A stretch of 64,000 bases of DNA from positions 93,352-157,351 of the forward strand of contig CAZCXU010000001.1 in NCBI GenBank assembly GCA_964502885.1, in the 5' to 3' direction. The notes under the pieces are model-generated. The model did not search any database and was not told where the DNA came from. It saw only the letters and a program-made list of their open reading frames with translations. Shown here piece after piece: positions 642-30,379 of this stretch. The DNA is from an uncultured Gammaproteobacteria bacterium (GTDB lineage: Bacteria; Patescibacteriota; Microgenomatia; CAZETR01; Amesbacteraceae). The stretch's first letter is position 1. Each line of letters starts with the position of its first letter. The translations under genes and the position numbers were made by a program.

Positions 642-1415
642 TTACGGTTGAAAAACTGATTCGGGAAGAATCGTTACATGCTTGACTTCAGGAAACTGCA
701 AGGCGGATTGTTCTAGACGAGTGCGGTGACTCATCTGAAGACAGGAGCCTCCAGAAGTTAAGCCGGGAATTTCTGAAATGACCAGTACCAATTCACCGTT
801 ACGCAAACTGAGCTCTTTGATGGTAAGGCGGGGATCGATTTCGGATAACTGGCGAGAAAGAGTTTCTCTGATCGGAGTTTTTGACAAACCAAGTTGAACA
901 GGACGAGGAGTTACGACATTGCACAGCTCATCTGAGACGTTTTCCTGACGATCAAAAAGATAAGCAGTACCTACCGCTCGCGCGGAAAACTCTACCGGCA
1001 GCTCGTACGATTTCATATTTTCGGCAAGACCACTGGGGTTATCGTTTTGAAACACTAAGAAACCAGACCCGCTAGAGACAGGTAGACCGTAGGATTGAGT
1101 AAACAGAAGCAACTCGTCTTCGCTGGAGGTTGGGGCAGGCACGGGGATACTTCGCGATAGAAGGATCTCCCTGCCTGAACTGAGAACCTGAACCTGAAAT
1201 TGGCCCTCAAATGTCCAGGATTTGGGGACATAGCCCTTTATCATCAGCACTCCGGTCAGAACAGAGGATGGTTTAGGAAGAAGCAACTGAAAAGCGGGCA
1301 TAGTCTCTGATACTGGCGACATGCGCATTCTGGATTCAGGGAGATTGGTGTAAAACAAAAAAGCGATTATTGTACCAACACCAAGCAAAATACCGATTTT
1401 GAGAAGCGCGCTCAT
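642..1415 (-). CDS. GerMN-domain protein, membrane-anchored (lipoprotein LpqB-like)
   Basis: 257-aa ORF with an N-terminal TM helix followed by a sporulation/germination (GerMN)-like domain; recalled by similarity. Confidence 0.4.
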   Translation of the reverse strand: MSALLKIGILLGVGTIIAFLFYTNLPESRMRMSPVSETMPAFQLLLPKPSSVLTGVLMIKGYVPKSWTFEGQFQVQVLSSGREILLSRSIPVPAPTSSEDELLLFTQSYGLPVSSGSGFLVFQNDNPSGLAENMKSYELPVEFSARAVGTAYLFDRQENVSDELCNVVTPRPVQLGLSKTPIRETLSRQLSEIDPRLTIKELSLRNGELVLVISEIPGLTSGGSCLQMSHRTRLEQSALQFPEVKHVTILPESVFQP

Positions 1416-1429: not shown

Positions 1430-2485
1430 TTGGCGGGAATGAAACTAGTCAAAGAGACCCAACAGATTATTCCAGAGGCTGTCTCGGTTCTAAATAAAGG
1501 AGGATTGGTAATCTTCCCATGCGAGACGGTGTATGGTGTGGCGGCTGATGCCAGCAACGAGGCGGCAGTGAGAAGACTTAATGCGTACAAACAACGCCCA
1601 ACAGGAAAACCATATGCGATTATGGTTTCGGATATGGCCATGGCGCAACAATATGTAGAAATTAACCAGACTGCCAGAAACTTATATAAAAAGTTTTTAC
1701 CTGGACCGTTAACAATAGTGTCAAAAGGAAAACACAAAGTTGCCTCCGGAGTTGAGTCAGAAAACGGATCCTTGGGAGTGAGAATTCCAGATTACGATTT
1801 TTTACTAAGATTGATTACTTCATTTGGCAAGCCGATAGTCGCAACATCTGCAAACGCCAGTTACAAGAAACGACCTTATAAGCTGGATGATGTTTTTGAA
1901 AATATTTCCCAGGACCAAAAACAACTGATTGATTTGGCTATCGATGCAGGGGAGTTGCCACACAATGAACCGTCTACCGTAGTGGATACGACTTTGGACG
2001 ATGCAACAATACTTCGACAAGGAGAGATCAGATTTTCAGAGGAAAACAGAGTAATAAGCCGAAGCGAAGAGAACACCCAGAATATTGGCAAGGAATTGTG
2101 GCAGAAGTACGAACACTTTTTGCATCAGCGAGCAATCGTATTTGCCCTTTCAGGAGAAATGGGGGCGGGAAAAACGCAACTCACAAAAGGGATAGCCAAA
2201 GCGATGGGAATTACTGACACAGTTGTCTCCCCCACTTTTAGTCTGGAAATCGAATATGACAACTTGGTTCACATAGATGCCTGGAGAATTGAGAACGAGA
2301 AAGAAGTTGAACAAATGGGTTATGTAAAGCGAATTTCGGAAAAGAGCGTCATAGTGATCGAGTGGGCCGAAAAAATCGGAAACTTAATTCGCAGATATGA
2401 TGATGATGCGATTGTGGTTTGGATAAAGATCAAATATGGATTCAGCGAGAATGAACGAATTATCTCCTGGGGGGTTGAGGCTTAA
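1430..2485 (+). CDS. Fused L-threonylcarbamoyladenylate synthase TsaC/Sua5 (YrdC domain) and t6A protein TsaE
   Basis: N-terminal YrdC/Sua5 motifs (VIFPCETVYGVAADASNEAAVRRLNAYKQRP...IMV). C-terminal TsaE/YjeE motifs (GEMGAGKTQLTKGIAKAMGI...VVSPTFSLEIEYD...DAWR). Confidence 0.75.
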   Translation: MAGMKLVKETQQIIPEAVSVLNKGGLVIFPCETVYGVAADASNEAAVRRLNAYKQRPTGKPYAIMVSDMAMAQQYVEINQTARNLYKKFLPGPLTIVSKGKHKVASGVESENGSLGVRIPDYDFLLRLITSFGKPIVATSANASYKKRPYKLDDVFENISQDQKQLIDLAIDAGELPHNEPSTVVDTTLDDATILRQGEIRFSEENRVISRSEENTQNIGKELWQKYEHFLHQRAIVFALSGEMGAGKTQLTKGIAKAMGITDTVVSPTFSLEIEYDNLVHIDAWRIENEKEVEQMGYVKRISEKSVIVIEWAEKIGNLIRRYDDDAIVVWIKIKYGFSENERIISWGVEA

Positions 2486-2486
2486 G

Positions 2487-3539
2487 ATGAAAACGGCTGA
2501 ACTAATATTGGCTATTGATACATCGTGTGATGAAACAGCTGTATCTGTAACATGTGGCACAAATGTACTTGCAAACATAGTCTGGTCTCAGGCGCAGCAA
2601 CACGCGGAATTTGGCGGAGTGATGCCATCGCTGGCGAAACGGATGCACGCAGAGCGCATCACTGAAGTAACACAAAAAGCTCTGGGCCGGGCAGGTATAG
2701 ACAAAAGAGAAATTGACTGTGTGGCGGTCACTACTGGGCCGGGCCTGGCCATTGCGCTGGAGGTAGGAATTCTGGCCGCAAAAACCATTTCTAATGAACT
2801 CGGAATACCCTTACTGGCGATAAATCACATAGAAGGACATCTATTGAGCAACCTGGCTGTGCCACGCAATAAACCCGCAACCTCTTTTGAATTTCCAGCA
2901 TTAGGACTGGTCATTTCCGGGGGACACACAGAATTAGTACATATTAGGAAATTTGGGCAATATCAAATTCTTGCCCAAACGCAAGATGACGCACTAGGAG
3001 AGGCGCTCGACAAAGCAGCCCGAATGTTGGGATTGGGATATCCGGGTGGAGCTGTTTTGGAAAAGATGGCAAAGTTTGGAGATCCAAAGGCTTATTCCCT
3101 GCCATTACCTATGGCGAGGCAGAGAAATTTTGAGGCGTTTAGTTATTCCGGACTAAAAACAGCTTTTTTCAGGTTAACCAATGAAATCGGAACTAAGAGC
3201 TCAACGAGACAACAAACATACAACCTGGCGGCTACTTTTCAAAATCGCGCCTTTCAGCACCTTGAAAAAGTTTGTAGCGCTCAAATAGAAAGACTTGGCA
3301 ATGAAAAGCCAAAATACTTGTGGGTCGGTGGAGGGGTGGCAGCAAATGCTTTACTGCGCAAAAGACTTAGAAGAATGGCAGAAGACTTTGGACTAAAGAC
3401 CAGATTCCCCTATTCAAAAAAACTGATCGGCGATAATGCGGCAATGATAGGTGTTGCCGCTTATTTACGCCGCACTGCTGGCATTGATGACAATATTATC
3501 CAACCAGACAGACGACCGAGATGGACGATTGGAAGCTAA
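2487..3539 (+). CDS. tsaD: tRNA N6-adenosine threonylcarbamoyltransferase TsaD (Kae1/Gcp family)
   Basis: MKTAELILAIDTSCDETAVSV... followed by a Gcp/Kae1-type HxxH/ASKPS-like core. The ATG at 2487 follows the tsaCE stop directly, so the track start at 2436 is probably an upstream extension. Confidence 0.85.
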   Translation: MKTAELILAIDTSCDETAVSVTCGTNVLANIVWSQAQQHAEFGGVMPSLAKRMHAERITEVTQKALGRAGIDKREIDCVAVTTGPGLAIALEVGILAAKTISNELGIPLLAINHIEGHLLSNLAVPRNKPATSFEFPALGLVISGGHTELVHIRKFGQYQILAQTQDDALGEALDKAARMLGLGYPGGAVLEKMAKFGDPKAYSLPLPMARQRNFEAFSYSGLKTAFFRLTNEIGTKSSTRQQTYNLAATFQNRAFQHLEKVCSAQIERLGNEKPKYLWVGGGVAANALLRKRLRRMAEDFGLKTRFPYSKKLIGDNAAMIGVAAYLRRTAGIDDNIIQPDRRPRWTIGS

Positions 3540-3714: not shown

Positions 3715-5961
3715 ATGGACAAAGCATACGACCACAAAAAATATGAGGACCAAATCTATGAGATGTGGGAGACTAGTGGGGCATTTAAACCTGCAGCAAC
3801 CGGAACTCCATATACAGTTCTAATGCCCCCACCAAACGCAAATGCATCCCTGCACGCCGGCCATGCGATGTATACCATTGATGACATTGTTACCAGGTGG
3901 AAAAGAATGCAGGGCTACTCGACGGTGTGGATTCCAGGAATGGATCATGCAGGGTTTGAGACGCAGTTTGTTTATGAAAAGAACCTGGCTAAAGAAGGTA
4001 AATCGAGATTGAATTTTGACCGGAAAACCCTATATAACAACATCTTCCAGTTTGTAAAAAACAATTCGGGTTTGATATACAAACAGTTTCGGAAACTAGG
4101 GTTATCCGCTGATTGGGACCGCAGCGTATTTACTCTAGACAGACGTGTAGTCGAACGGGTTTATGAAACTTTTAGACGGATGGAAAGAGAGGGTAAGGTT
4201 TACAGGGACAACTACATGGTGAACTATTGCACACACTGCGGAACTTCCCTGTCTGAACTCGAAGTTGATCACGAGGAAAGAGTGGATCCGCTGTACTACT
4301 TAAGGTACGGCCCTTTTGTGTTGGCCACAGTAAGGCCGGAAACAAAGTTTGGAGATACAGCTGTGGCGGTTCATCCGGGCGACAACAGGTATACAAGTCT
4401 GGTAGGTAAGGAGATTGAAGTGGATGGGTTGATTGGAAAATTCAAGGTGAAAGTGATTGCAGATGAAGCTGTTGATCGGGAGTTTGGAACAGGAGCAGTA
4501 AAAGTAACCCCAGCACATGACCCGACTGATTTTGAGATGGGGAAACGTCACAATCTGGAAATAAAACAGGTAATTGGTCTTGATGGGCGATTAAACGAAA
4601 AGTCTGGTAAATATGCGGGTTTGAAAGTAGCTGAGGCGAGAAAGGCTGTTGTTGCGGATTTGCAGAGTGCTGGCTTACTGGAAAAAGTTGATGAGAATTA
4701 CAAACACGCGGTATCCATTTGCTACAAGTGTAAAAGAACGCTCGAACCCACAATCATCCCTAACTGGTTTGTACGCATAAACGATTTGAAAAAACCAGTT
4801 ATTGAAGCAGTAAATCGTGATGAGGTGAGGTTTTTTCCTAAGAAATTTAAGAGATTAATGTTGGACTGGTTAAAGAGAATGCACGACTGGCCCATCAGCC
4901 GGCAAATTGTCTGGGGAATTCGGATTCCGGTGTGGTATGAGTTGGATTTTCAAAAAGAAAATATTTGGGCGGGATGGCTGGATAAAGAGGGAAAGTTTCA
5001 ACAATCATCTGTTAGTCATGCTCTGAAACAGGGCACTCCCCTATCGGAAATTGTGGACGGGCTGCAATGGATCAGAACCAGCACAGGAGAGTCGGCCCCC
5101 AGATATGTGGTTTCAGAGGAGAAACCCGCGGACGGAAAAATATATTTGCCGGAGACAGACACCTTTGACACCTGGTTTTCCTCCAGCCAATGGCCACTAG
5201 TAACCCTGGATGAACATGAGTTTGCCACAAGATTCCCTTCCGATTTCATGGGCACATTGGAGGATATACTCCCCTTTTGGATTTCACGAATGATTTTGTT
5301 TGGAGAATATGTGAAACAAGGTGTTCCATTTAAACAGGTGTACTTGTGGTCAAAAGTGACTGATAGCAAGGGGCAAAAAATGAGCAAAAGCAAAGGAAAT
5401 GTGGTCAATCCGGTTGATTTTATTGATAAATACGGAGCTGATGCGGTAAGAATGGCTCTTGTTTTTGGTGTCGCTCCAGGGAGCTCAATCCCCTTTTCCG
5501 AAGGCAAAATTAGGGGCATGCGTAATTTTGCTAATAAACTTTGGAATGTGGCACGGTTTGTCTTTACGACTATTCAGGATACTGCTCAAGGAGAAGCAAT
5601 TTCCAACGAAGTACAAGAATCTTTGAATAGCCGTCTGGAGACAATTAGACAAAAGTCGGAGCTGGTTCAAAAAAAGGTCTCATTAAGTTTAGAGCACCTA
5701 CGTTTCAATGATGCTGCAGAATATATCTATGAATACGCCTGGCACGAATTCGCTGACAAAGATTTGGAATTTATAAAGACAAGAATTAATTCTGGAGCAC
5801 GAGTAAATGGCAGGTCAAAAAAGGATCTTACGGCTGCATTAATCAATATTCTGACAAGTGTTCACCCGTTAATGCCGTTTGTTTCAGAGGCAATCTGGCA
5901 GGAGGGTATCAGACAAAATCTATCAGGATTTACAGGAATGCTAATAAGAAAAGTCTGGTAG
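3715..5961 (+). CDS. valS: Valine--tRNA ligase (compact, no C-terminal coiled coil)
   Basis: HAGHAMY (HIGH-like) motif, CP1 editing-domain motif VRPETKFGDTAVAVHP, and KMSKSKGN (KMSKS) motif. Confidence 0.9.
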   Translation: MDKAYDHKKYEDQIYEMWETSGAFKPAATGTPYTVLMPPPNANASLHAGHAMYTIDDIVTRWKRMQGYSTVWIPGMDHAGFETQFVYEKNLAKEGKSRLNFDRKTLYNNIFQFVKNNSGLIYKQFRKLGLSADWDRSVFTLDRRVVERVYETFRRMEREGKVYRDNYMVNYCTHCGTSLSELEVDHEERVDPLYYLRYGPFVLATVRPETKFGDTAVAVHPGDNRYTSLVGKEIEVDGLIGKFKVKVIADEAVDREFGTGAVKVTPAHDPTDFEMGKRHNLEIKQVIGLDGRLNEKSGKYAGLKVAEARKAVVADLQSAGLLEKVDENYKHAVSICYKCKRTLEPTIIPNWFVRINDLKKPVIEAVNRDEVRFFPKKFKRLMLDWLKRMHDWPISRQIVWGIRIPVWYELDFQKENIWAGWLDKEGKFQQSSVSHALKQGTPLSEIVDGLQWIRTSTGESAPRYVVSEEKPADGKIYLPETDTFDTWFSSSQWPLVTLDEHEFATRFPSDFMGTLEDILPFWISRMILFGEYVKQGVPFKQVYLWSKVTDSKGQKMSKSKGNVVNPVDFIDKYGADAVRMALVFGVAPGSSIPFSEGKIRGMRNFANKLWNVARFVFTTIQDTAQGEAISNEVQESLNSRLETIRQKSELVQKKVSLSLEHLRFNDAAEYIYEYAWHEFADKDLEFIKTRINSGARVNGRSKKDLTAALINILTSVHPLMPFVSEAIWQEGIRQNLSGFTGMLIRKVW

Positions 5962-12916: not shown

Positions 12917-14275
12917 ATGGATAAGGAAAAAACCTGGACAAGTGTACTCGCGTCCCTAAAAACTGAAGTGTCTGAGGGAATTTTTAACACCTATCTGAAA
13001 AATACTCACATTGTAGACATCCAGGAAAATGATCAACGAACAATTTTTGAAATAGGATGCAACTCCACATTTATAAGAAACACATTAGACCTTCGCTATC
13101 ACGGACAAATTGCTAGGGAATTATCCAGAGTAACAGGCAAAACAGCAGAGGTGGTAATTAAAGTTGCGGAAAAGAAAATTGAACTTGATGAAAAAGGAAC
13201 TCTTTTTGAGACACCCAAGGCCACCGTTTTTTCTGATGCATGGAGAAAGGCCAACCTGAAAGCTGACTTTACCTTTGAAAATTATGCTGTGTCCGGAAGC
13301 AACCAGATGGCGTATGCGGCCGCACAGGCCGTGGCGAAAAAATTGGGAGAAACATACAATCCATTGTTTATATACGGTGGGGTGGGGGTGGGGAAAACAC
13401 ATTTAATGCAAGCGATAGGTCACGAAGCCTTGCGAAATTCAAATGGACAGGTATTGTTTTGTTCCGGAGAGGAATTTACGAATGACCTAGTCGAAGCTAT
13501 TAGATTTAAAACTACGGATAAAGTTAGATCAAAGTATCGCAAAGTAAAACTTCTCATGATTGATGATGTGCAATTTATTGCCGGAAAACCCACAGTGCAG
13601 GAAGAATTTTTCCATACGTTTAACGCTATACAGCGCGACGGGGGTCAGGTCGTTATGACATCAGATAAGCCCCCCGGAGAAATTGCCAAGCTAGAGGAAA
13701 GGCTGAGAAGCCGGTTTGGGGCTGGCTTAATTGTCGACGTAGGGCCGGCAGACTTTGAATTGAGATCTGCAATTGTTCTAATTAAAGCCAAACAAAGAAA
13801 CATGGAAATCTCAATGGAAACAGCTCAAACGATTGCGGCAAATGTTACCGGAGTGCGAGAACTACAGGGGGCATTAATTAAACTGGAAACAGAAGAGCGA
13901 ATTCGGGGAAAAAAATTAGACATGGAGGAAATTTTGAAACTTTTGAATGTTCAAAACGAAGAAGCTATTAAATCCAGATTTATTACTCCAACTGAAGTCA
14001 TAAACCAGATCGGAAATTATTACGGAGTGGGCGTGCAACAACTTAAGGGTGAGAAAAGAACCAAGACGATTGTTTGGCCACGACAAATATTAATGTTTAT
14101 ATTACGCCACGATCTTAAACTACCATTGGAAGAAGTTGGAAGGCTGCTGGGAGGAAGAGACCACACCACAGTATTGCACGCCACAGACAAAGTCCGAGGG
14201 GAATTGGACCAGAACCATAAATTTGCAGCCGAAATGGCGGATGTTAAAAGAAAAATCTTTGGTGGTGGAGCATAA
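12917..14275 (+). CDS. dnaA: Chromosomal replication initiator DnaA
   Basis: AAA+ motifs GGVGVGKTHLMQAIGHEA, and a C-terminal DNA-binding domain (TTVLHA...). Confidence 0.95.
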   Translation: MDKEKTWTSVLASLKTEVSEGIFNTYLKNTHIVDIQENDQRTIFEIGCNSTFIRNTLDLRYHGQIARELSRVTGKTAEVVIKVAEKKIELDEKGTLFETPKATVFSDAWRKANLKADFTFENYAVSGSNQMAYAAAQAVAKKLGETYNPLFIYGGVGVGKTHLMQAIGHEALRNSNGQVLFCSGEEFTNDLVEAIRFKTTDKVRSKYRKVKLLMIDDVQFIAGKPTVQEEFFHTFNAIQRDGGQVVMTSDKPPGEIAKLEERLRSRFGAGLIVDVGPADFELRSAIVLIKAKQRNMEISMETAQTIAANVTGVRELQGALIKLETEERIRGKKLDMEEILKLLNVQNEEAIKSRFITPTEVINQIGNYYGVGVQQLKGEKRTKTIVWPRQILMFILRHDLKLPLEEVGRLLGGRDHTTVLHATDKVRGELDQNHKFAAEMADVKRKIFGGGA

Positions 14276-14528
14276 CGACATGAACAATTTGTGGACAAAG
14301 TGTGTGCGGGCAGGGGATGGGAGGAAAAAACTTGTGAATAAACACAATAAGTTGTTCACACCTAGTGGATTTTTTTTAATTTATCCACAATAATGTGCAC
14401 AAGTTTACATAGTAGGTTTTACACAAGAAATTAACCCGAAAGTTGAGTGCGATAATGCAAAATAATCAACTTATCCACAATACCTACTACTGAGACGACT
14501 ATTTTAGATATAAAAATATCGATACCGA
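14276..14528. promoter_or_regulatory. Probable oriC (dnaA-dnaN intergenic) with DnaA boxes and AT-rich unwinding element
   Basis: Perfect TTATCCACA at 14381-14389 and 14471-14479. TGTGGACAA (one mismatch) at 14290-14298. A T-rich tract at 14368-14380. Confidence 0.6.
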
Positions 14529-15647
14529 ATGAAAACAACAGTTTTACAAAGTGATCTGGCAAAATGTTTGGGAACAGTCAGCAGAGTGATACCCAGCAGA
14601 GGGCAGTTGCCTGTGTTGGCAAATGTGCTATTGGAGGCACGCAAAGATGGATTGACCCTAGTAGCAACAAATCTGGAACTTGGAATTCGTGTAATGGTGG
14701 GGGGAAAGATTGAGGAGGAGGGTGACATAACTATTCCGGCGAAAAACTTAACTGAATTTGTATCATCGTTGCCTGCAGGGAGCGTTGATCTATCGACTGA
14801 TGGGGAGAAGATGCTTATTAAGGGCGGAAAGCTATCTGCGACCTTTACAGGGATTTCAGCGATGGAATTTCCGGTGGTACCAAAGATCGAAAGTGTACAA
14901 GGTGGACGAATAGTAAAGATTAAAAGGGCGATGATGGAAAAAGTTGCAAAACAAGTTGCTTTTGCTGCAGCTACAGATGAGAGTAGGCCAGTTTTGACAG
15001 GTGTGGTTTTTATGAGTGAGGGAAATATATTGAAAATTACGGCAAGTGATGGATTTCGATTGAGCAGGAGATTTATTGAGATGGAAAGGGGGTTATGGTT
15101 ATCGGATAAAAGGTTGATTCTTCCGGCAAGAACACTATTGGAGATGTCAAGAATTGCAGCAGAGGGTAAAAAGGAAGAGATTGAGATGGCTGAAATAGCT
15201 GAGAATAACCAGGTTATTATGGCTTACGATGGAATTCAGCTTACATCGCGGATACTGGAGGGTAATTTTCCTGATGTAGAAAAGATTATTCCCGTGGATA
15301 CCAGAACAAAGATTACTCTTGATAGGCAGGAAATGCTGCGGGCGGTTAAGGCAGTGGGGATATTTGCAAGGGACAGTTCGAATATTATCAGGCTTAGAAT
15401 TCAAGATGGCGGGATGATGGTGGAGGCAAGCGCTACTCAGACAGGAGAGAGCACTGTTGAATTGGAAGGGGAGAAGACTGGAGACGATGGACAGATTGCT
15501 TTCAATTACCGGTTTGTGTTGGACTTTTTGAATAGTGTGGATAGTGAGAGAGTTACCTTTGGAATGAATGACAGCCTGGCCTCAGGGTTGTTTGGAATTG
15601 ATGGTGACAATGAATTGCTGCACTTGATAATGCCGGTAAGAGTCTAA
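14529..15647 (+). CDS. dnaN: DNA polymerase III beta sliding clamp
   Basis: 372 aa with three-domain clamp architecture. The N-terminus reads MKTTVLQSDLAKCLGTVSRVIPSRGQLPVLANVLLEA. Confidence 0.9.
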   Translation: MKTTVLQSDLAKCLGTVSRVIPSRGQLPVLANVLLEARKDGLTLVATNLELGIRVMVGGKIEEEGDITIPAKNLTEFVSSLPAGSVDLSTDGEKMLIKGGKLSATFTGISAMEFPVVPKIESVQGGRIVKIKRAMMEKVAKQVAFAAATDESRPVLTGVVFMSEGNILKITASDGFRLSRRFIEMERGLWLSDKRLILPARTLLEMSRIAAEGKKEEIEMAEIAENNQVIMAYDGIQLTSRILEGNFPDVEKIIPVDTRTKITLDRQEMLRAVKAVGIFARDSSNIIRLRIQDGGMMVEASATQTGESTVELEGEKTGDDGQIAFNYRFVLDFLNSVDSERVTFGMNDSLASGLFGIDGDNELLHLIMPVRV

Positions 15648-17033: not shown

Positions 17034-17321
17034 TTAATGATGATTAATTTCTTCAAGTAATATGAGCGGAAGTTTGAGCAAATGATCCTTTTCTTCCTGA
17101 TAAGGGTCGGAGAAATGTTCATCTGTAGAGTGTGTTTCCACTTCGCGGCGAAGCTCTTCTGTGCTTTTGTGGAGGACCTGCCCAGCCCATTGCCAAAGCG
17201 GGTCAGCGTCTGTTTTGAACTGATCAAAATTATGACAGGAATTACAGATTTCAATTACGGCGTTTTCCAGACTGCTGACGACAGATGGATTTATGTAGTC
17301 AGGGTAGGCAAAAGTGTTCAT
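17034..17321 (-). CDS. Hypothetical small protein in the T4SS-like operon
   Basis: 95-aa ORF, acidic, translationally coupled to the VirB4 stop. Confidence 0.3.
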   Translation of the reverse strand: MNTFAYPDYINPSVVSSLENAVIEICNSCHNFDQFKTDADPLWQWAGQVLHKSTEELRREVETHSTDEHFSDPYQEEKDHLLKLPLILLEEINHH

Positions 17322-19183
17322 TTTGATTCAGGAACCAGTATTGGTTTGGTTTGAGTTTCAGCTTGTTTTTGAGCTAATATTTCGGAGGGTTTGGTGGTAA
17401 TTAGCTTGTGTTCGTCCGGGGATGCTACAAAGCGAACAGCTACGTGATTGTTTCCTGCAAAAAACAGACCTTCTCCAACGTTTGCTGACAGGAGAAGGTG
17501 TTTTTCTCCCTCGGAGAGATAGAAGACCTGGGAAATTTTGTCGACTCCCGCTGGTGATTGTTTCATGAGTATTTGTAGGGAAGAACTGGTGACGATGGCT
17601 TTGCCGTAATCAGTGTTCAAAAAGTCTTCTACGTCCTGAGTAATAGTGGTAAGACCGAGAAAATACTTACGAGCGCGTTTGGCGACGCTGTAGAGGAAAC
17701 TGGCTGAGTCGGGATAACGCATGAGATACCAGGCCTCGTCTACCACAAGAATGCGTTTCTTGAGGTCGCGGCGCATTTTTGTCCAGATATAGTCAAGAAT
17801 GAGAAAGATAGCAATGGGCTTGAGAGAATCTTCGAGATCGCGGACAGAAAAAACTGTAAATTGATTTTTTAGTTGAATATTTGATGGCTGATCGACTATT
17901 CCGGTAAAACTTCCCTTTACAAATCGTTCTAGGCGATCAGCAAGAGATAGGGCTATGGGTTCTTCCATGCCAATGAAAGCTTTGTAAAGATCTTCCATTA
18001 GCGGGGGAGTATTTTTTTGTGTAGCGGGATCAGGGGTGATACCTTTCATACGATAAGCGAGATTGAGGGCGCGATCGAGAAGTGCGTCTTCTGTGGGGCT
18101 AAGGTTTCCCATGATGACTTTGAACATGGAATGCAGCGATTGAATTTTGAGATTAAGCTCGTTTTCATCTGAATTTTGGGTAAGAAGGGAAAGATCAAAG
18201 GGGTTGATGCGATTTTGAGAATTGTAGGAGAAATTGATGTAGTCGCCTCCTACGGCATCACAGAGGGCTTTGTATTCGTTTTCAGGATCTATAACGATTA
18301 TTTCTGTACCAAACATCATGGAACGAACCAGTTCAAGTTTAATGGTGTAAGACTTTCCCGCACCGGATTTGGCGAATACTACTGAGTTGGCGTTTTCCAG
18401 AGAGAAGCGATCAAAAATGACCAAACTGCCGTTGTGCTGATTTATTCCATAGAGGATGCCGTCATTGCTGGTGAGCTCTGATGAGGTGAAAGGGAAGGTG
18501 GTGGCCAGAGAGGTGGTGTCCATGTTTCTGGTGACCATAAGATGGTCGATACAGGTGGGGAGGGTGGTTTTGAAACCTTCAGCCTGCTGGAGGAGTGTGG
18601 GTGTAGAGGCCACTAGAAGAGATGAAAGGGAGCTAGTGACCTGTTTACTGGCAGTTTCAAGTTCGGAGGGGGAATCGGCGGGAATGGTGACATAGAGAGA
18701 GAATTGAAAGAAGCGTTCGATGCCTTTGACGAGTTGATCCTGAAGAGCCAGAGCGTCTTCGAGTTTGGCTTGGGTTACAGGATCGACAACGCGGCCGCGT
18801 TGGGCGTCAGTGTTTAGCTCGGCTTCCATTTCGGCAATCTTTCGACGCAGATCGTCGAGCGTGGACTTGCTTTCTACAGGATAGATGAACATGGAAATAT
18901 TTAGTGAATGGTCAAAATTAATGATGGGACTAAGCCAGTTGCTGGAGACGAAGCGGCGGTTTATTGAGGTGAAGTAGGTGCGGAAATATGTGTCGTTGAT
19001 TTTTAATGAATTGAAATCGATGGTAATGTTTTGTGGGGCGATGATATCCTTGACTGTTTTGGCCTGGGATAATTCTTTTTGGGGGAGAGCCATATTTGTG
19101 TCTGGGACGTTACCGGAGACCTGAGTTGCAGGAGTGGCAGTTTTTTTGACGGGGGTAAGGTTAGGGAGTTTTGGTAGCTTCAT
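17318..19183 (-). CDS. Type IV secretion / conjugation ATPase VirB4 family (C-terminal ATPase portion)
   Basis: Walker A VVFAKSGAGKSYTIK, Walker B ILVVDEAWYLM, and the general VirB4/TraE/CagE architecture. Confidence 0.85.
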   Translation of the reverse strand: MKLPKLPNLTPVKKTATPATQVSGNVPDTNMALPQKELSQAKTVKDIIAPQNITIDFNSLKINDTYFRTYFTSINRRFVSSNWLSPIINFDHSLNISMFIYPVESKSTLDDLRRKIAEMEAELNTDAQRGRVVDPVTQAKLEDALALQDQLVKGIERFFQFSLYVTIPADSPSELETASKQVTSSLSSLLVASTPTLLQQAEGFKTTLPTCIDHLMVTRNMDTTSLATTFPFTSSELTSNDGILYGINQHNGSLVIFDRFSLENANSVVFAKSGAGKSYTIKLELVRSMMFGTEIIVIDPENEYKALCDAVGGDYINFSYNSQNRINPFDLSLLTQNSDENELNLKIQSLHSMFKVIMGNLSPTEDALLDRALNLAYRMKGITPDPATQKNTPPLMEDLYKAFIGMEEPIALSLADRLERFVKGSFTGIVDQPSNIQLKNQFTVFSVRDLEDSLKPIAIFLILDYIWTKMRRDLKKRILVVDEAWYLMRYPDSASFLYSVAKRARKYFLGLTTITQDVEDFLNTDYGKAIVTSSSLQILMKQSPAGVDKISQVFYLSEGEKHLLLSANVGEGLFFAGNNHVAVRFVASPDEHKLITTKPSEILAQKQAETQTKPILVPESK

Positions 19184-19832
19184 TTTTGACTGATGGAACG
19201 GGAACTTTTGGTAAGGTAACGTTTGTTCCCATTACATCCTGATTATAGGAATTAAAAAATAACTGTAATAGTTCATTTGAGGTTATTTGGCGCCCTTTAA
19301 GACCTATGCGAGCGAGAAGTCGCAACAAATGATCTCTTTTGGGAACAAGGTTTGTAATGGCCCGATCAACTATATAGTCTTTGGGGAGAGTGGTATTTGC
19401 TGACTTACCTCCCAGAACTTTCAGCGAAGAACCAACACCTAATTCAAGTGAACTAAATGGCAAAGATATGTAGAATTTTTTATCCAACACATTTCCCTGA
19501 CGAACGATGGCTTTGACGAAGTCGCGATATTTAGTAAGCTGTTCCTTGAGCTTTGATGTGGTGATTTGGGCAAGGTGAGTGTCCAGTTTTTCGATATAAC
19601 TGGAAATATCTTTTCGTTTGCTGATGAGAACGATTTGGATGGAAAAAGTGAGTGAGTTTAGAAGCTGTGCGTAGGCATAAATGGTGGCGTCCTGCTCTCT
19701 TTCTGAAAGAAGACCAAAGTTGACGGCGCTAATTTCCATGACCATACAGGCCGAGCCGTCTTTGAGAATGACGATGTCGTTTTGAATATCTTCAATGTCC
19801 AGATGATCTTGTGTGCGGGGGGGGATAGTCAT
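19161..19832 (-). CDS. VirB4 N-terminal (CagE/TrbE/VirB-like) domain encoded as a separate ORF
   Basis: ...DIVILKDGSACMVMEISAVNFGLLSEREQDATIYAYAQLLNSLTFSIQIVLISKRKDI resembles the N-terminal domain of VirB4 homologues. It overlaps the VirB4 start by 23 nt. An alternative upstream start lies at 19907. Confidence 0.4.
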   Translation of the reverse strand: MTIPPRTQDHLDIEDIQNDIVILKDGSACMVMEISAVNFGLLSEREQDATIYAYAQLLNSLTFSIQIVLISKRKDISSYIEKLDTHLAQITTSKLKEQLTKYRDFVKAIVRQGNVLDKKFYISLPFSSLELGVGSSLKVLGGKSANTTLPKDYIVDRAITNLVPKRDHLLRLLARIGLKGRQITSNELLQLFFNSYNQDVMGTNVTLPKVPVPSVKNEATKTP

Positions 19833-19839
19833 ACTTTTT

Positions 19840-20931
19840 TTAGGTTTTTCCGTGAATAATAACAGGGCTAATAATACTGCCTTTGGCTTGAATAGAAACC
19901 GGGTCAAAAGTTAAACCTTCCTTTTCGGCGATGACGTTGTAAGTTCCGGCTGGCAAGGGAATGGCAATTTGGAACTGACCGAGACGATTGGTTCTTAGGG
20001 CCCGTGCAGGAATACCTGTCTTGGTATCAATAATCTCTACAGTTGTTTGTGCTAACGGCTGGGAAGCTGCATCTACAACCATGCCGGTGAGAATATTCGG
20101 ACTGGCAGGATTGGGAAGCTGAGTGGTGACTGTAGCAGATGGGGCTGAAGGAATATTTACAGGTTTGGGAAGCGGGGGAGTGTTAGCAACAACAGCTGAA
20201 ACACCAGAGGAGGTGAGAATTGGTGAGGTAGGAGTGGTGGGTGTAGCTAAAACTGTTTGTGGTGACGCTTCGGCGTGGGGTGTGCCTGCCGATGAGAAAG
20301 AGGTTGAGATGGTTGGAGTTGAGGTGGAATTTTTAACTGGAGATGTAAAGACTGGTTGGGCGCGTGCAGGGGAAGTGGGGATAGGTGCAGAAGAAGGGGC
20401 AGATGTAGGGATAATGGGGGGAACAGTTGAATTAGGAGCGGGTGTGGGAACAATGGAGGAAATGGCTGAGTTAGGAGTAGTTGATGGAGGTAGAGTTTTT
20501 GCGGTGGACATCTGCGGTTCAATTTTTATGGCAGCAGGAATTGGTGCCGGAACGGTGGTGACTGGTTGAGGTGTAGGTGGCGACGGTGGAGCGGCTGTTG
20601 CAGTGGGTGTGATTGGTGGGGGTGGGGCAAGGCTCGCAACGATTTCGTCAGAGATCCAGACATACTCAGTGGGAGAATAGATGGCTTTAAAAAAAGCGAC
20701 GAGCCAAGTGGTAAAGGGTCGATTGTTGATAGGGATAAAGGCCATGAGTGCACCCGTGGTGATGGAAATAAAAACCAGCGGGTATTTGATTATGGGGATT
20801 AATTGGAGACGGAAAATGAGCACCCCCACAACAATGCCTCCTGCCAGCTGGAGAAATTGCTTGAGGGTCATATCGCCCACGAGACGGAACTCGTAGGAGG
20901 AAATATTTTGCGGGACAGGGTGGTTATCCAT
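19840..20931 (-). CDS. PrgI/TcpE-like (VirB3-analog) two-TM protein with Pro/Thr-rich linker and C-terminal carboxypeptidase-regulatory-like beta domain
   Basis: N-terminal SSYEFRLVGDMTLKQFLQLAGG followed by two TM helices. A long PT-rich low-complexity region. The C-terminus reads GMVVDAASQPLAQTTVEIID...YNVIAEKEGL. Confidence 0.4.
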   Translation of the reverse strand: MDNHPVPQNISSYEFRLVGDMTLKQFLQLAGGIVVGVLIFRLQLIPIIKYPLVFISITTGALMAFIPINNRPFTTWLVAFFKAIYSPTEYVWISDEIVASLAPPPPITPTATAAPPSPPTPQPVTTVPAPIPAAIKIEPQMSTAKTLPPSTTPNSAISSIVPTPAPNSTVPPIIPTSAPSSAPIPTSPARAQPVFTSPVKNSTSTPTISTSFSSAGTPHAEASPQTVLATPTTPTSPILTSSGVSAVVANTPPLPKPVNIPSAPSATVTTQLPNPASPNILTGMVVDAASQPLAQTTVEIIDTKTGIPARALRTNRLGQFQIAIPLPAGTYNVIAEKEGLTFDPVSIQAKGSIISPVIIHGKT

Positions 20932-21005
20932 AAGCTGGTTTACATTTATCCTACCGCGTGAAAGAGAGTTTGCAAGCTAATGTTTTCACATACTAGAATA
21001 GAGTC

Positions 21006-21128
21006 ATGGTTGAGCAGGGAAACTTCAAAGATAAGGTTGCTTTTGTGTTTGGTGGTGCAATCCTTGGATTGATGGGATTGGTGGCTATAATCTTGAAGAT
21101 TGTGGGGAGGATTTGTGGCTGTTTCTGA
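21006..21128 (+). CDS. Possible 40-aa hydrophobic micro-protein (not in ORF track)
   Basis: Hand translation gives MVEQGNFKDKVAFVFGGAILGLMGLVAIILKIVGRICGCF*, a single TM helix, in the divergent region between the prgI-like gene and the 926-aa gene. Confidence 0.2.
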   Translation: MVEQGNFKDKVAFVFGGAILGLMGLVAIILKIVGRICGCF

Positions 21129-21181
21129 ATCTATCCTATAGTTGATAATTCGTGGTAAAATGAGAGTGTTATACTAATTTC

Positions 21182-23962: not shown

Positions 23963-24020
23963 TTAAAAAAGTGGTCTGGTGGATGGTTTATTCGGATAAG
24001 TTGTTTATAGAATGCGTAGC

Positions 24021-25751
24021 TTAGGATGTACCACCTGCGGGAGGGACAGGTCTTCGAATGTTGGCTTCTTTGGCTTTGGAGACTTGCTGACCAGCCGAAG
24101 TCAATTGTCCCATGGTGTCTTTGGCCATCTTTTCAACAAAGTCAGAAGGATCTACAGACTTACAGAACATGTTCTTAACCATGGTTGCTATGTTGGGGGC
24201 GAATGACATGGCCCCTACGAAAACTGCATATTGGACGAAAATATTACTGGGCATGTCAAATAAGGGAAAGTTGGCTTGGTTGTTAAAAAAGAAGCCTATG
24301 TCTCCGGCGAATCCTGGGACGGGAGTGCGAGTGTCAAACCCTGCATTAATTAGAATTGCTAAGAGAGCATATGTCACAAAAATTGAGGCATTGCCGATGA
24401 GACAAAGAAGCCATTTTTTAAATCCACCAAAATCAGATTTCTTCGATGGGATAATATCGAAAATAATTATTAGCGGGCCGGCGACAACCAGAAGATTAAA
24501 AGTAATAAAGGCGACCACAAATTGACCAATAATTCTGGCCCAGACGTAAATTGACCAAAGGAAGAAACCAAGAATGAAACCAGCTATGAGAACAACCACT
24601 CCTCCAGAAGCAAGATTAAGCAGTGCAGCTAGAACTATAGTGAGAATTATCAGTACTATGGAAACAACTATCCAAAAGGCAAGGAAATGCCAGACAAAAT
24701 CAAAACCGCCTCCAGCTAAGGTGGACATAGCAAGCGGCAAGTCAGTTATAATTGTCATGCCGATAGCTGTTTGGGCAAAATAAAGCATGCCAATAATTGC
24801 GGAAATGGCTAAGTACATCAGGTCAATTACGAAGCCGGCAATGGCGTATGAAAAGAGAACCAACACAATAGATATGGCAATGCGGGGAATAACCATTTGA
24901 ATTGTTACCGAGACTTGCGGAGATATTTTTGAACGGAACATAACCATAAAACCAGCAATGATGATAATCAGGGTGGTAATTAATAGTGCGATGTTTCGAG
25001 TGGCGATCCAAAATGCTCGGGTAGGAGAGTCTGTCGTTCCGGTACCACCCAAGCCAAGTCTTTCGTAACCACTTCCTTGCGCAAACGTGTCCGAGACAAT
25101 GTTGAGTTTTGAAGCAAGTTGTTTAGTTTCAGACCAGGCTGAGGGGAGGGTGTCAATTTGTGATGAGATATAGTAGGTAAGCTTGAGTACTCCAATATAA
25201 CTTTGACCTATGAATCCATATTTATTAACAAATGCCAGATCAGAAGAAGAAAAATTTTGAGTGACGAGCATGCTGCGGGCAAGATCTATCGCTGTGAGTA
25301 AATCAGTGATGTTTTGCAAAAGGGCTGCTGGATCAGGAGAAGATATAACTGAGGGAAATAACATCGAAGAGAGAGAGTTGAGGATCCAGTTTACTTGAGC
25401 GTAGGTGTAGCGCTCACCAAAAATTTCGTCGGGATTTGTATTGTCGAAAACTTTTTGCTGGAACTCCTGAATTGAAGGATTGTACCAAGGGTGTGGTGTT
25501 ACTTCGGCGAAGAACAAACGGGAGATTTCGTAGATGAGATAGGAGCAACGTGCTGCATCACCGAAAGGGTTGGGGGAAATGGCTTGACAGGCAGCATCTG
25601 CCTGAGCGCACAGCGGCTCGGCGGGATCACAGGTCGGTTGGGCAAGAACCGGTGATGGTGTGATAAATACTGTTAACCCTATGAATAGAAACGAAAGGGT
25701 AAAAAGGTATTTTTTAATCAGCATTGAAAGATGTTTTGTCATGGAAGACAT
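24021..25751 (-). CDS. Polytopic membrane protein with signal peptide and Cys-containing periplasmic N-domain; VirB6/TrbL-like candidate
   Basis: Signal peptide, then a roughly 230-aa extracytoplasmic domain, then about 8 TM helices with large loops, consistent with VirB6-like topology. Confidence 0.35.
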   Translation of the reverse strand: MSSMTKHLSMLIKKYLFTLSFLFIGLTVFITPSPVLAQPTCDPAEPLCAQADAACQAISPNPFGDAARCSYLIYEISRLFFAEVTPHPWYNPSIQEFQQKVFDNTNPDEIFGERYTYAQVNWILNSLSSMLFPSVISSPDPAALLQNITDLLTAIDLARSMLVTQNFSSSDLAFVNKYGFIGQSYIGVLKLTYYISSQIDTLPSAWSETKQLASKLNIVSDTFAQGSGYERLGLGGTGTTDSPTRAFWIATRNIALLITTLIIIIAGFMVMFRSKISPQVSVTIQMVIPRIAISIVLVLFSYAIAGFVIDLMYLAISAIIGMLYFAQTAIGMTIITDLPLAMSTLAGGGFDFVWHFLAFWIVVSIVLIILTIVLAALLNLASGGVVVLIAGFILGFFLWSIYVWARIIGQFVVAFITFNLLVVAGPLIIIFDIIPSKKSDFGGFKKWLLCLIGNASIFVTYALLAILINAGFDTRTPVPGFAGDIGFFFNNQANFPLFDMPSNIFVQYAVFVGAMSFAPNIATMVKNMFCKSVDPSDFVEKMAKDTMGQLTSAGQQVSKAKEANIRRPVPPAGGTS

Positions 25752-25797
25752 TTTTACTTTAGAATAAATAGATCAAACATGCAATAACAGTGGTTGG

Positions 25798-29460: not shown

Positions 29461-29484
29461 GGGCTACACTATTCTAGCAAATCT

Positions 29485-29880
29485 TTAGGAGCAGCCGATG
29501 CCTCTGGCTATACAGATATCAAATATTCCCAAATTGATACCGAGGAAAGTGCCAATAAGGTTGACTATTACGAATGCTGACAAGGTGATTATTAATCCTG
29601 CAAGAGAAAAGATAATTGTATTTCTTGCTTGTTCGGTTTGGGCTTTGTCTGCTCCTGCAGCTAGATACTTGTATCCACCAATAACCAGAAATCCTAAAGA
29701 AATGAAAACAAAAAGGCTGATGATTGCGGTAATCGCAGCGGCTATTACTCTATTTAGGTTCTGGAGCATTGCGGGCGGAGTAGGGTTTGCAATTGTTGTT
29801 TGAGCTTGAGCGACAGTAGGCCATGCTAATACGAATACAGATGCGGCCAACGTGATCAGTGAGCGAATTGTTGTGTACAT
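29485..29880 (-). CDS. T4SS pilin-like protein (VirB2/TrbC-like two-helix), paralog 1
   Basis: Signal peptide, then TM1-GADKAQTEQARNTI-TM2. It ends in a CxxxxxC tail. Confidence 0.55.
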   Translation of the reverse strand: MYTTIRSLITLAASVFVLAWPTVAQAQTTIANPTPPAMLQNLNRVIAAAITAIISLFVFISLGFLVIGGYKYLAAGADKAQTEQARNTIIFSLAGLIITLSAFVIVNLIGTFLGINLGIFDICIARGIGCS

Positions 29881-30326: not shown

Positions 30327-30379
30327 ATCTCACCGCCTTTCAGTGGAAAGTATAACATAAAATCAGTGCCGGAGGCTAA

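What the first reader, a model, noticed from the sequence alone, without database searches (positions are those of the whole stretch)
1430..3539. t6A biosynthesis: TsaC(Sua5/YrdC)-TsaE fusion protein followed by tsaD, with no tsaB in the window
A single 351-aa ORF carries a complete YrdC domain and a complete TsaE P-loop domain (GEMGAGKT...SPTF). tsaD follows 1 nt after its stop. Bacterial TsaD normally needs the TsaB partner, and TsaE binds the TsaBD dimer. A covalent TsaC-TsaE arrangement would imply a different assembly logic for this essential pathway, perhaps substrate channelling of threonylcarbamoyl-AMP.
Basis: partly seen in the sequence, partly recalled or inferred. Interest (0 to 1): 0.5.

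Follow-up and report, generated by a model that had tools for sequence, protein, structure and literature searches.

The report
Natural TsaC–TsaE fusion enzyme in Microgenomates
[quoted passage not shown] This is real rather than a sequencing error, and it bears on how the intermediate reaches TsaD. Whether the usual partner TsaB is missing from the genome could not be checked.

Summary
ORF 1439–2485 (+) encodes 348 aa with a complete YrdC/TsaC domain and a complete TsaE P-loop domain, both above NCBIfam equivalog cut-offs. tsaD starts 1 nt after its stop. No TsaB-like ORF lies in the 64 kb window.

It is not a frameshift artefact. All 120 best database homologues carry both domains. 38 Microgenomates genomes (Woesebacteria, Amesbacteria, Collierbacteria), two of them closed, have the fusion followed by tsaD. 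The junction has a nearly fixed length and a conserved sequence. About 26 of the 150 nearest TsaE cluster representatives are such fusions. Sister lineages carry stand-alone tsaE–tsaD in the same synteny.

AlphaFold gives two well-folded domains (pLDDT 94) without a fixed mutual orientation (pTM 0.64). That points to a short tether rather than a rigid tunnel.

Best reading: an ordinary t6A pathway in which TsaC is tethered to TsaE, so TC-AMP is made beside TsaD while TsaE holds it open. This matches a model proposed for T. maritima.

"No tsaB" is uninformative for 64 kb. A cultured CPR bacterium has a 130-aa mini-TsaB elsewhere, and genome-wide absence was not testable here. I found the fusion in none of the t6A papers checked. 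Verdict: a new variant of a known kind, of moderate interest.

The parts
1439..2485 (+). tsaC–tsaE fusion gene (348 aa from ATG 1439; alternative TTG start at 1430 gives 351 aa; stop TAA 2483–2485)
   Evidence: ORF list and sequence. Pfam and NCBIfam hits for both domains. P0001 is 100% identical at 348 aa.
1487..2023 (+). YrdC/TsaC (TC-AMP synthase) domain, aa 20–198 of the 351-aa ORF
   Evidence: PF01300 5.5e-50. TIGR00057 182.6 bits, above the 123.2 cut-off. Best solved relatives are the YrdC domains of Sua5/TsaC2 and MTH1692. Foldseek TM 0.81–0.84 to E. coli YrdC and YciO.
2024..2059 (+). Short interdomain junction (…LRQGEIRF-SEENRVIS-RSEENT…)
   Evidence: No indels in 39 sequences. 43 residues between the LRQG Gly and the Walker A Gly in 49 of 60 fusions, down to 32% identity. 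pLDDT 80–83 in this stretch.
2060..2482 (+). TsaE P-loop ATPase domain (Pfam aa 211–327; the fold continues to the C-terminus)
   Evidence: PF02367 4.5e-29. TIGR00150 83.9 bits, above the 60.1 cut-off. Foldseek TM 0.78 to H. influenzae YjeE 1htw and 0.68 to T. maritima TsaE 6n9a_E.
2153..2176 (+). Walker A motif GEMGAGKT of the TsaE domain
   Evidence: Read from the sequence. G239, G242, G244, K245 and T246 are invariant in 60 fusions.
2228..2239 (+). SPTF motif, the loop that dips into the TsaD active site in the T. maritima TsaBDE structure
   Evidence: Sequence. S264 and P265 are invariant. Role taken from PMC6009658.
2270..2287 (+). HIDAWR (HxDxYR-type) motif of TsaE
   Evidence: Sequence. 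H278 and D280 are invariant and R283 nearly invariant.
2483..2489 (+). TAA–g–ATG junction: tsaD starts 1 nt after the fusion's stop, with GAGG a few bases upstream
   Evidence: Sequence. The same adjacency occurs in all 38 related genomes, a few with one small inserted gene.
2487..3539 (+). tsaD (350 aa), the threonylcarbamoyl transferase subunit; has the NHIEGH metal-binding motif, GGGVAAN and GDNAAM
   Evidence: PF00814 3.7e-78. TIGR03723 343 bits, above the 296.1 cut-off. Motifs read from the translation.
3715..5961 (+). valS (748 aa), conserved downstream synteny partner. It is context, not part of the machine.
   Evidence: Pfam tRNA-synt_1 and Anticodon_1. The order VanW – (tsaC:)tsaE – tsaD – valS – L25 – DUF4012 – RNase H recurs in relatives.

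Best explanation
This is a genuine, lineage-wide gene fusion in Microgenomates (CPR/Patescibacteria). One polypeptide carries an intact threonylcarbamoyl-AMP synthase (TsaC, YrdC fold). A junction of about 10 residues with almost invariant length links it to an intact TsaE ATPase. The gene is translationally coupled to tsaD.

Shown: the architecture, its conservation, intact catalytic motifs in all three domains, the folds, and the conserved operon.

Inferred mechanism: the chemistry is the ordinary bacterial t6A pathway. TsaC makes TC-AMP from threonine, bicarbonate and ATP, and TsaD transfers the threonylcarbamoyl group to A37 of ANN-decoding tRNAs. TsaC now rides on TsaE. When the ATP-bound TsaE domain docks at the mouth of the TsaD active site, it holds TsaD open and excludes tRNA. 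The tethered TsaC domain is then within a few nanometres, so the labile TC-AMP is produced and handed over locally. ATP hydrolysis by the TsaE domain then releases the whole TsaC–TsaE protein, tRNA binds, and t6A is formed.

The tether raises local concentration and fixes 1:1 stoichiometry; it is not a sealed tunnel. A TsaB partner, possibly a miniaturised one as in Saccharibacteria, is probably encoded elsewhere in the genome. This was not verified.
For: Both domains pass the curated equivalog cut-offs, and the motifs are intact and invariant across 60 fusions of 32–67% identity.

All 120 best homologues have PF01300 plus PF02367 at about 345–360 aa. 38 genomes carry the fusion followed by tsaD.

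Junction length and sequence are conserved. Roughly 26 of the 150 nearest TsaE cluster representatives (50% identity clusters) are fusions, nine of them verified by Pfam.

AlphaFold gives pLDDT 94.2 with both folds confirmed against PDB TsaC and TsaE structures, and pTM 0.64, which indicates a non-rigid domain pair.

Sister lineages have stand-alone tsaE–tsaD at the same locus, so tsaE–tsaD is the conserved core and tsaC was joined to it.

Published model: TsaE sits at the entrance of the TsaD active site, excludes tRNA and opens TsaD. [quoted passage not shown] A transient four-protein complex was seen in T. maritima but could not be isolated (PMC6009658).

A substrate is present: tRNA-Ser(GCU) in the window has U36-A37-A38.
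Against: There is no biochemical evidence. pTM 0.64 means no confident interdomain geometry.

In TobZ the TsaC-like module binds the TsaD-like module on the side opposite to where TsaE binds (PMC6009658). A junction of about 10 residues might therefore not let TsaC reach a TobZ-like docking site while TsaE is bound.

Close relatives function with stand-alone TsaE, so the tether is not obligatory.

Fusion could simply reflect co-expression and genome compaction. TsaB status is unknown.
Confidence: 0.6

Rival explanations
1. TsaB-less minimal system. These bacteria have lost TsaB altogether. TsaD forms a Qri7-like homodimer, and the TsaE domain of the fusion docks on the TsaD–TsaD helical bundle. 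The result would be a two-polypeptide t6A machine (TsaD plus TsaC–TsaE).
For: No TsaB-like ORF was found in the window or within ±10 kb of the fusion in 38 genomes, nor next to stand-alone tsaE in five further CPR lineages. That is about 0.89 Mb in total, searched with a 72-sequence TsaB HMM that does pick up every TsaD.

In Saccharibacteria tsaB follows tsaE; in Microgenomates that slot is occupied by tsaD.

CPR already shrink TsaB to 130 aa. TsaD and TsaB can homodimerise in vitro through the same helices (PMC6009658).
Against: Only one syntenic region per genome was sampled, and tsaB is dispersed from tsaD and tsaE in most bacterial phyla.

Known reductions lose TsaE first, or lose TsaB and TsaE together. 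TsaB loss with TsaE retained has not been reported (PMC4615747).

TsaE's α3 helix and β5–β6 loop contact TsaB in the solved complex, and the corresponding region is conserved here.
Confidence: 0.25
2. Neutral or economy fusion. The two genes were merged by genome streamlining, giving co-regulation and 1:1 stoichiometry. There is no kinetic or structural consequence, and the domains act independently as in other bacteria.
For: CPR genomes are compact. Sister lineages do without the fusion. AlphaFold shows no confident interdomain packing. A rough tree of TsaE domains mixes fused and stand-alone forms, which is compatible with repeated fusion and fission.
Against: Junction length is almost invariant and the junction sequence, including the first TsaE helix (KELWQKYE), is highly conserved in the window's clade. 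That is more constraint than expected for a passive linker. The fusion persists across sequences as divergent as 32% identity.
Confidence: 0.25
3. The TsaE domain acts in cis as a surrogate for the SUA5 domain of TsaC2. It would occupy the same C-terminal position and gate or regulate TC-AMP synthesis or release, rather than (or as well as) resetting TsaD.
For: The nearest solved relatives of the YrdC half are Sua5/TsaC2 enzymes. Foldseek aligns the whole model to Sua5 chains. The domain order (YrdC, linker, then an α/β domain of about 140 aa) mimics Sua5.
Against: There is no PF03481/SUA5 signal. Whole-chain superpositions on Sua5 have rmsd of 10–13 Å. The linker is much shorter than the Sua5 linker and lacks its conserved gating motif (the second point is my recollection of PMC6004061, not checked here). 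All the TsaE motifs that contact TsaD (SPTF, Walker A) are invariant.
Confidence: 0.1
4. Assembly or sequencing artefact (a frameshift merging adjacent tsaC and tsaE genes).
For: None found. One cluster contains a 199-aa TsaE-only call beside 367-aa fusions, which shows that split calls occur occasionally.
Against: The identical architecture occurs in all 120 best homologues from NCBI, JGI, ENA and Logan. It occurs in 38 genomes, including two closed chromosomes. The junction is conserved and nearly indel-free. An independent read-level assembly encodes the identical protein.
Confidence: 0.01

Closest known systems
Canonical bacterial t6A system: TsaC/TsaC2 plus the TsaB–TsaD–TsaE complex (E. 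coli, B. subtilis, T. maritima)
   Same: The same three catalytic or regulatory families, all passing equivalog cut-offs, with the same motifs and the same expected chemistry.
   Different: TsaC and TsaE are covalently joined. tsaB is not in the operon or the window, and its presence in the genome is unknown. No stable TsaC–TsaBDE complex could be isolated in the canonical system.
Sua5/TsaC2 (YrdC domain, linker, SUA5 domain)
   Same: N-terminal YrdC domain followed by a C-terminal α/β domain of similar size. These are the closest solved sequences to the YrdC half.
   Different: The C-terminal domain is a TsaE P-loop ATPase, not a SUA5 domain (no PF03481 hit). The linker is only about 10 residues.
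TobZ, HypF and Pandoravirus TsaN (YrdC-like domain fused to a Kae1/TsaD-like domain)
   Same: Covalent coupling of the adenylate-forming YrdC module to another component of a carbamoyl-transfer pathway. The rationale is protection of a labile acyl-adenylate.
   Different: Here the fusion partner is the ATPase, not the transferase. There is no evidence for an internal tunnel, and AlphaFold does not fix the domain orientation.
Archaeal Kae1–Bud32 fusion (MJ1130, HVO_1895)
   Same: A natural fusion that ties the pathway's regulatory ATPase/kinase to another core subunit.
   Different: There the ATPase is fused to the transferase. Here it is fused to the TC-AMP synthase, and Bud32 and TsaE are unrelated folds.
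Other reported bacterial t6A gene fusions: yeaZ::rimI::ygjD, alr::yjeE, hydrolase::yeaZ, TsaC/HemK
   Same: They show that genes of this pathway fuse with neighbours, mostly in Gram-positive-type lineages.
   Different: None joins TsaC to TsaE. The SyntTax survey states that no direct interaction between YrdC and the YgjD complex had been reported.
Saccharibacteria (Southlakia epibionticum) t6A genes
   Same: A CPR bacterium with the pathway compacted into two-gene units.
   Different: There the pairing is tsaD–tsaC and HIT–tsaE–tsaB, with a 130-aa TsaB and no fusion. All are scored non-essential by Tn-seq.

Membership tests
TsaC / L-threonylcarbamoyladenylate synthase (TIGR00057, PF01300) | Sequence membership above the curated equivalog cut-off | tested here: met
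   TIGR00057 182.6 bits against a cut-off of 123.2; PF01300 169.8 bits against 25.1.
TsaC / L-threonylcarbamoyladenylate synthase (TIGR00057, PF01300) | YrdC α/β twisted open-sheet fold | tested here: met
   AlphaFold pLDDT above 90 across the domain. Foldseek TM 0.81 to 1hru (E. coli YrdC) and 0.84 to 1k7j.
TsaC / L-threonylcarbamoyladenylate synthase (TIGR00057, PF01300) | Conserved substrate-binding motifs (T-x-Y-G, K-x-R, PGP-T, S-x-N) | tested here: met
   PCETVYG, YKQRP, LPGPLT and ATSAN were read in the sequence. T30, Y32, G33, K51, P88, G89, P90, T92, S137 and N139 are invariant or nearly invariant in 60 fusions. The motif list itself is from my knowledge of the family.
TsaC / L-threonylcarbamoyladenylate synthase (TIGR00057, PF01300) | TC-AMP synthesis from Thr, bicarbonate and ATP | not testable with these tools
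   Requires an enzyme assay.
TsaE (TIGR00150, PF02367) | Sequence membership above the curated equivalog cut-off | tested here: met
   TIGR00150 83.9 bits against 60.1; PF02367 101.4 bits against 26.6.
TsaE (TIGR00150, PF02367) | P-loop fold with Walker A, SPT(F/Y), HxDxYR and EW motifs | tested here: met
   GEMGAGKT, SPTF, HIDAWR and IEWAEK, invariant in 60 fusions. Foldseek TM 0.78 to 1htw.
TsaE (TIGR00150, PF02367) | ATPase activated by binding to TsaB–TsaD | not testable with these tools
   Requires biochemistry.
TsaD (TIGR03723) | Equivalog-level membership and metal-binding HxxxH…D motifs | tested here: met
   343 bits against a cut-off of 296.1. NHIEGH and GDNAAM are in the translation.
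Canonical bacterial TsaBDE threonylcarbamoyl-transfer complex | Presence of the dimerisation subunit TsaB (TIGR03725) | tested here: inconclusive
   Absent from the 64 kb window and from ±10 kb in 38 related genomes. A 130-aa TsaB invisible to Pfam exists in another CPR lineage.
Sua5 / TsaC2 | C-terminal SUA5 domain (PF03481) | tested here: not met
   No PF03481 hit. The C-terminal domain is TsaE. Superposition on Sua5 chains gives rmsd of 10–13 Å.
TobZ/HypF-type channelling carbamoyltransferases | YrdC-like and Kae1/TsaD-like domains in one polypeptide forming an internal tunnel | tested here: not met
   TsaD is a separate gene. The fused partner is TsaE. pTM 0.64 gives no fixed interdomain cavity.

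The most novel reading that the evidence does not exclude
Microgenomates run t6A synthesis with only two polypeptides, TsaD and TsaC–TsaE, and have no TsaB at all. The TsaE domain would then act on a TsaD homodimer. This combination (TsaE kept, TsaB lost) has not been reported for any organism. The fusion would be part of a re-wired minimal bacterial t6A machine, intermediate between the bacterial TsaBDE system and the mitochondrial Qri7-only system.
Probability: 0.25. Interest if true: 0.65.

Novelty: new variant of a known kind. Interest (0 to 1): 0.42.

Why it matters
Two questions in bacterial t6A synthesis remain open. One is what the TsaE ATPase cycle is for. The other is how the very labile TC-AMP gets from TsaC to TsaD, given that no stable TsaC–TsaBDE complex has been isolated.

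A natural, ancient and strongly conserved TsaC–TsaE fusion is 'Rosetta-stone' evidence that TsaC and TsaE act at the same step. That agrees with the proposal that TsaE-bound, open TsaD is the form that receives TC-AMP.

It also offers a practical handle. With the fusion, the elusive loading complex becomes a two- or three-component assembly that could be trapped with a non-hydrolysable ATP analogue for cryo-EM.

If TsaB turns out to be absent genome-wide, this would additionally define a new minimal bacterial t6A system. Database annotation currently calls these proteins only 'L-threonylcarbamoyladenylate synthase', so the TsaE of these genomes is hidden in annotation-based surveys.

Tried and rejected
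1. Frameshift or merging artefact: rejected.

2. TsaB hidden in the window or neighbourhood: searched with phmmer (recalled E. coli YeaZ, Spirochaete TsaB, their N-domains and the window's TsaD), a 72-sequence TsaB HMM, a GPGSFTG motif regex, and Pfam/NCBIfam scans of small unannotated ORFs beside tsaE and tsaD in CPR loci. Nothing was found. The positive control worked: the Spirochaete tsaE–tsaB locus L040 was detected.

3. ORFs inserted between the fusion and tsaD in some relatives are LigT/2H-phosphoesterase-like or DHDPS-like, not TsaB.

4. Attempts to obtain a CPR TsaB as a probe failed. The metagenome scan returned only ordinary full-length TsaBs close to the Spirochaete query. The viral-contig scans returned giant-virus TsaC genes and no TsaB. 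Look-ups of seven stand-alone CPR TsaE genes (P0123, P0133, P0135, P0141, P0150, P0178, P0198) showed no adjacent TsaB.

5. Literature and supplement searches for TsaB, COG1214, K14742 or TIGR03725 in CPR gave only the Southlakia table.

6. The AFDB Foldseek library was unavailable, so UniProt naming and taxonomy of the fusion could not be listed.

7. TsaE reps with N-terminal extensions of about 50–100 aa were inspected as possible TsaB–TsaE fusions. Three (P0124, P0163, P0202) are truncated TsaC–TsaE fusions, one (P0233) is a chimeric-looking TsaD fragment plus TsaE, and the rest have unassigned N-termini. An M20-peptidase-fragment–TsaE protein (P0189) also turned up. None showed a TsaB-like N-terminus.

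8. I ran no further search on TsaB. Only the best 120 hits are listed, so a non-CPR query could not surface CPR TsaBs.
Full report
1. OBSERVATION

The + strand carries one ORF from 1430 (TTG) or 1439 (ATG) to the TAA at 2483–2485. Public databases hold the 348-aa ATG form (P0001, 100% identical).

Pfam finds a full-length Sua5_yciO_yrdC domain (aa 20–198, 5.5e-50) and a TsaE domain (aa 211–327, 4.5e-29). NCBIfam places both halves above the curated equivalog cut-offs: TIGR00057, L-threonylcarbamoyladenylate synthase, 182.6 bits against 123.2; TIGR00150, TsaE, 83.9 bits against 60.1.

The family motifs can be read directly. YrdC half: PCETVYG, YKQRP, LPGPLT, VRIP, ATSAN. TsaE half: GEMGAGKT (2153–2176), SPTF (2228–2239), HIDAWR (2270–2287), IEWAEK.

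tsaD begins at 2487, one base after the stop, behind a GAGG. It is a standard TsaD: TIGR03723 343 bits against a cut-off of 296.1, with NHIEGH and GDNAAM metal ligands.

No TsaB-like ORF exists in the window. This was tested with phmmer using E. coli YeaZ and the window's TsaD against all stop-to-stop ORFs of at least 60 aa, a 72-sequence TsaB HMM, a GPGSFTG motif search, and Pfam on 45 window ORFs.

2. NOT AN ARTEFACT

Several results exclude it.

- All 120 best homologues, out of 4971 with E ≤ 1e-5, carry PF01300 plus PF02367. All but two are 340–363 aa (the exceptions are 375 and 388 aa). They come from NCBI, JGI, ENA and Logan assemblies.
- An independent Logan assembly of run SRR12404947 encodes the identical protein followed by tsaD.
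- A scan of one genome per GTDB species found the fusion in 38 genomes. They are labelled Woesebacteria, Amesbacteria, Collierbacteria, Microgenomatus, Microgenomates or Patescibacteria; some carry an evidently wrong Proteobacteria label. Two are closed chromosomes, CP011214.1 and CP066686.1.
- Every one of them has tsaD immediately downstream, or after one small inserted gene. The inserted genes are LigT-like or DHDPS-like.
- The junction has no indels in these 39 sequences and is strongly conserved: …LRQG-x-I-K-x-K-D-K-N-E-V-L-S-R-S-E-E-N-T-Q-N-x-x-K-E-L-W-Q-K-Y-E….
- In 60 fusions reaching down to 32% identity, the distance from the LRQG glycine to the Walker A glycine is 43 residues in 49 cases (range 39–50).

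3. HOW WIDE, AND WHERE IT CAME FROM

I searched the TsaE half alone against 1.84 billion cluster representatives. About 26 of the 150 nearest are TsaC–TsaE fusions of 352–483 aa, nine of them re-checked with Pfam. The rest are mostly stand-alone TsaE of about 150 aa.

Some of the closest stand-alone forms are genuine. Four lineages carry VanW – tsaE – tsaD – valS, with L25, DUF4012 and RNase H further downstream on the longer contigs. This is the same synteny as the window but without the YrdC half. tsaE–tsaD is therefore the conserved core of this CPR group, and tsaC was joined to its 5' end.

A rough neighbour-joining tree of TsaE domains places the stand-alone forms inside the fused ones. 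That would mean an old fusion with later fission, but the tree is weak.

Two further CPR arrangements were seen: tsaE–polA, and tsaE–HIT–tsaD.

4. STRUCTURE

AlphaFold2 with the 60-sequence alignment gives mean pLDDT 94.2 but pTM only 0.64. The junction residues have pLDDT 80–83.

Foldseek against the PDB matches the N-terminal half to YrdC, YciO and the YrdC domains of Sua5 (TM up to 0.84). It matches the C-terminal half to TsaE/YjeE (TM 0.78 to 1htw, 0.68 to 6n9a_E). Whole-chain alignments to Sua5 have rmsd of 10–13 Å. By sequence, the nearest solved relatives of the YrdC half are Sua5/TsaC2 enzymes and MTH1692.

I read this as two rigid, canonical domains on a short leash whose mutual orientation is not fixed, at least in the free protein. 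[quoted passage not shown]

5. MECHANISM (INFERRED)

In the T. maritima TsaBDE structure, TsaE sits at the entrance of the TsaD active site. Its SPTF loop dips into that site. It excludes tRNA and opens, or partly melts, the TsaD pocket.

The authors proposed that TsaE 'prepares' TsaD to receive TC-AMP from TsaC, and that ATP hydrolysis then ejects TsaE so that tRNA can bind. A four-protein complex was seen on native gels but could not be isolated (PMC6009658).

A covalent TsaC–TsaE protein is what that model would predict as an evolutionary shortcut. Whenever TsaE is docked, a TC-AMP synthase is held next to the open TsaD pocket. Release of TsaE also removes TsaC. I consider this the best explanation (confidence 0.6 overall; about 0.95 for what the object is, about 0.5 for the tether-delivery mechanism).

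There are caveats. The same paper notes that in TobZ the TsaC-like module sits on the opposite face of the TsaD-like module from TsaE, and a junction of about 10 residues may not reach that far. Close relatives manage without the fusion. A purely economical fusion (co-expression, stoichiometry) cannot be excluded.

6. THE tsaB QUESTION

Absence from 64 kb says little. The genes of the YgjD complex are dispersed in most bacterial phyla (PMC3571937).

Nor is there a TsaB within ±10 kb of the fusion in 38 genomes, or beside stand-alone tsaE in the other CPR lineages. In total this is about 0.89 Mb, and the HMM used finds every TsaD in it.

However, the only CPR bacterium with a curated gene table I could find is Southlakia epibionticum (Saccharibacteria). 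It has tsaD–tsaC adjacent, and at a distant locus HIT–tsaE–tsaB. Its TsaB is only 130 aa with no Pfam hit. All four genes are scored non-essential (PMC10633639 supplement). A miniature TsaB elsewhere in Microgenomates genomes is therefore quite possible.

Known reductions lose TsaE alone, or TsaB and TsaE together, never TsaB alone (PMC4615747). My attempts to obtain a CPR TsaB probe failed. I put the TsaB-less reading at about 0.25.

7. COMPARISON WITH WHAT IS KNOWN

The parts are ordinary members of TsaC, TsaE and TsaD. The combination is not Sua5 (no SUA5 domain) and not a TobZ/HypF/TsaN-type YrdC–Kae1 fusion. The reported fusions involving t6A genes are:

- Kae1–Bud32
- TsaC/HemK
- yeaZ::rimI::ygjD
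- alr::yjeE
- hydrolase::yeaZ
- TsaD–TsaC–SUA5–TcdA

None of them joins TsaC to TsaE. Sources name these proteins only 'L-threonylcarbamoyladenylate synthase'. The architecture is of course visible to anyone who runs Pfam on these genomes, so it is undescribed rather than undiscoverable.

8. VERDICT

This is a real, conserved and undescribed domain fusion within a well-known pathway: a new variant of a known kind. It is moderately interesting. It gives comparative support to one specific model of the TsaE cycle and of TC-AMP hand-over. It also offers a natural construct for trapping the loading complex. It would be more interesting if TsaB proves to be absent genome-wide, which a simple HMM and structure search of the closed genomes would settle.

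Noticed in passing
window 12917–15644 and the whole window: dnaA (12917–14272) and dnaN (14529–15644) lie about 10 kb from the t6A operon. GC skew nevertheless stays positive over all 64 kb, and cumulative skew rises monotonically with no sign change at dnaA. A paper on another Microgenomates genome reports unusual strand composition disparity (PMC7143001, title only).
   Followed up: no
window 17318–34052: A CPR-type type IV secretion cluster: a TraG/VirB4-like ATPase (17318–19180), a PrgI-like protein (19840–20928), and four T4SS_pilin genes (29485–29877, 30783–31451, 32135–32551, 33540–34052). Three large ORFs with no Pfam hit are interleaved: 21182–23959 (926 aa), 24021–25748 (575 aa) and 25798–29457 (1219 aa).
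   Followed up: partly
window 40241–40639 (−) and 38700–39200 (+): A tmRNA gene for which ARAGORN predicts an unusually long 28-aa tag peptide (ARVEGFVAKVNPFNSIFSTQFAPRMLYA). smpB is about 1 kb away. The tag call was not verified.
   Followed up: no
window 42625–53190: Four tRNA-Ser and two tRNA-Arg genes are scattered over 10 kb. tRNA-Ser(GCU) at 42625–42710 has U36-A37-A38, the t6A substrate signature.
   Followed up: partly
window 3715–5961; relatives L002–L048: The valyl-tRNA synthetase downstream of tsaD is short: 748 aa here and roughly 680–770 aa in relatives (stop-to-stop ORFs, or gene calls of 687–734 aa). Which part is missing was not examined.
   Followed up: no
L003 11057–11641, L005 11015–11521, L010 11024–11530, L032 11037–11567: In several relatives an ORF of 167–194 aa is inserted between the fusion and tsaD. 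The three scanned (L003, L005, L032) give weak to modest Pfam hits to LigT/2'-5' RNA ligase (2H phosphoesterase) families. L010's was not scanned but is near-identical to L005's. L004 has a DHDPS-like gene in that position.
   Followed up: partly
literature: Southlakia epibionticum SEML1_0047/0048 and SEML1_0713–0715: In this cultured Saccharibacterium TsaB is only 130 aa with no Pfam hit. tsaD–tsaC and HIT–tsaE–tsaB form two separate pairs, and all t6A genes are scored non-essential by Tn-seq (PMC10633639 supplement). A HIT gene also sits next to the fusion in L031 (read from the ORF sequence) and next to tsaE in L045 (Pfam HIT).
   Followed up: partly
proteins P0233 and P0189: Two odd TsaE architectures appear on short or unknown contigs. 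P0233 has about 70 aa of the TsaD N-terminus fused to TsaE, on a 1.4-kb Logan contig. P0189 has an M20-peptidase fragment fused to TsaE. Both are probably chimeric or truncated calls.
   Followed up: partly
window 642–1415 (−): A divergently oriented 257-aa ORF with an N-terminal hydrophobic segment and no Pfam hit ends 23 bp from the fusion's ATG. The promoter of the t6A operon must therefore overlap it.
   Followed up: no
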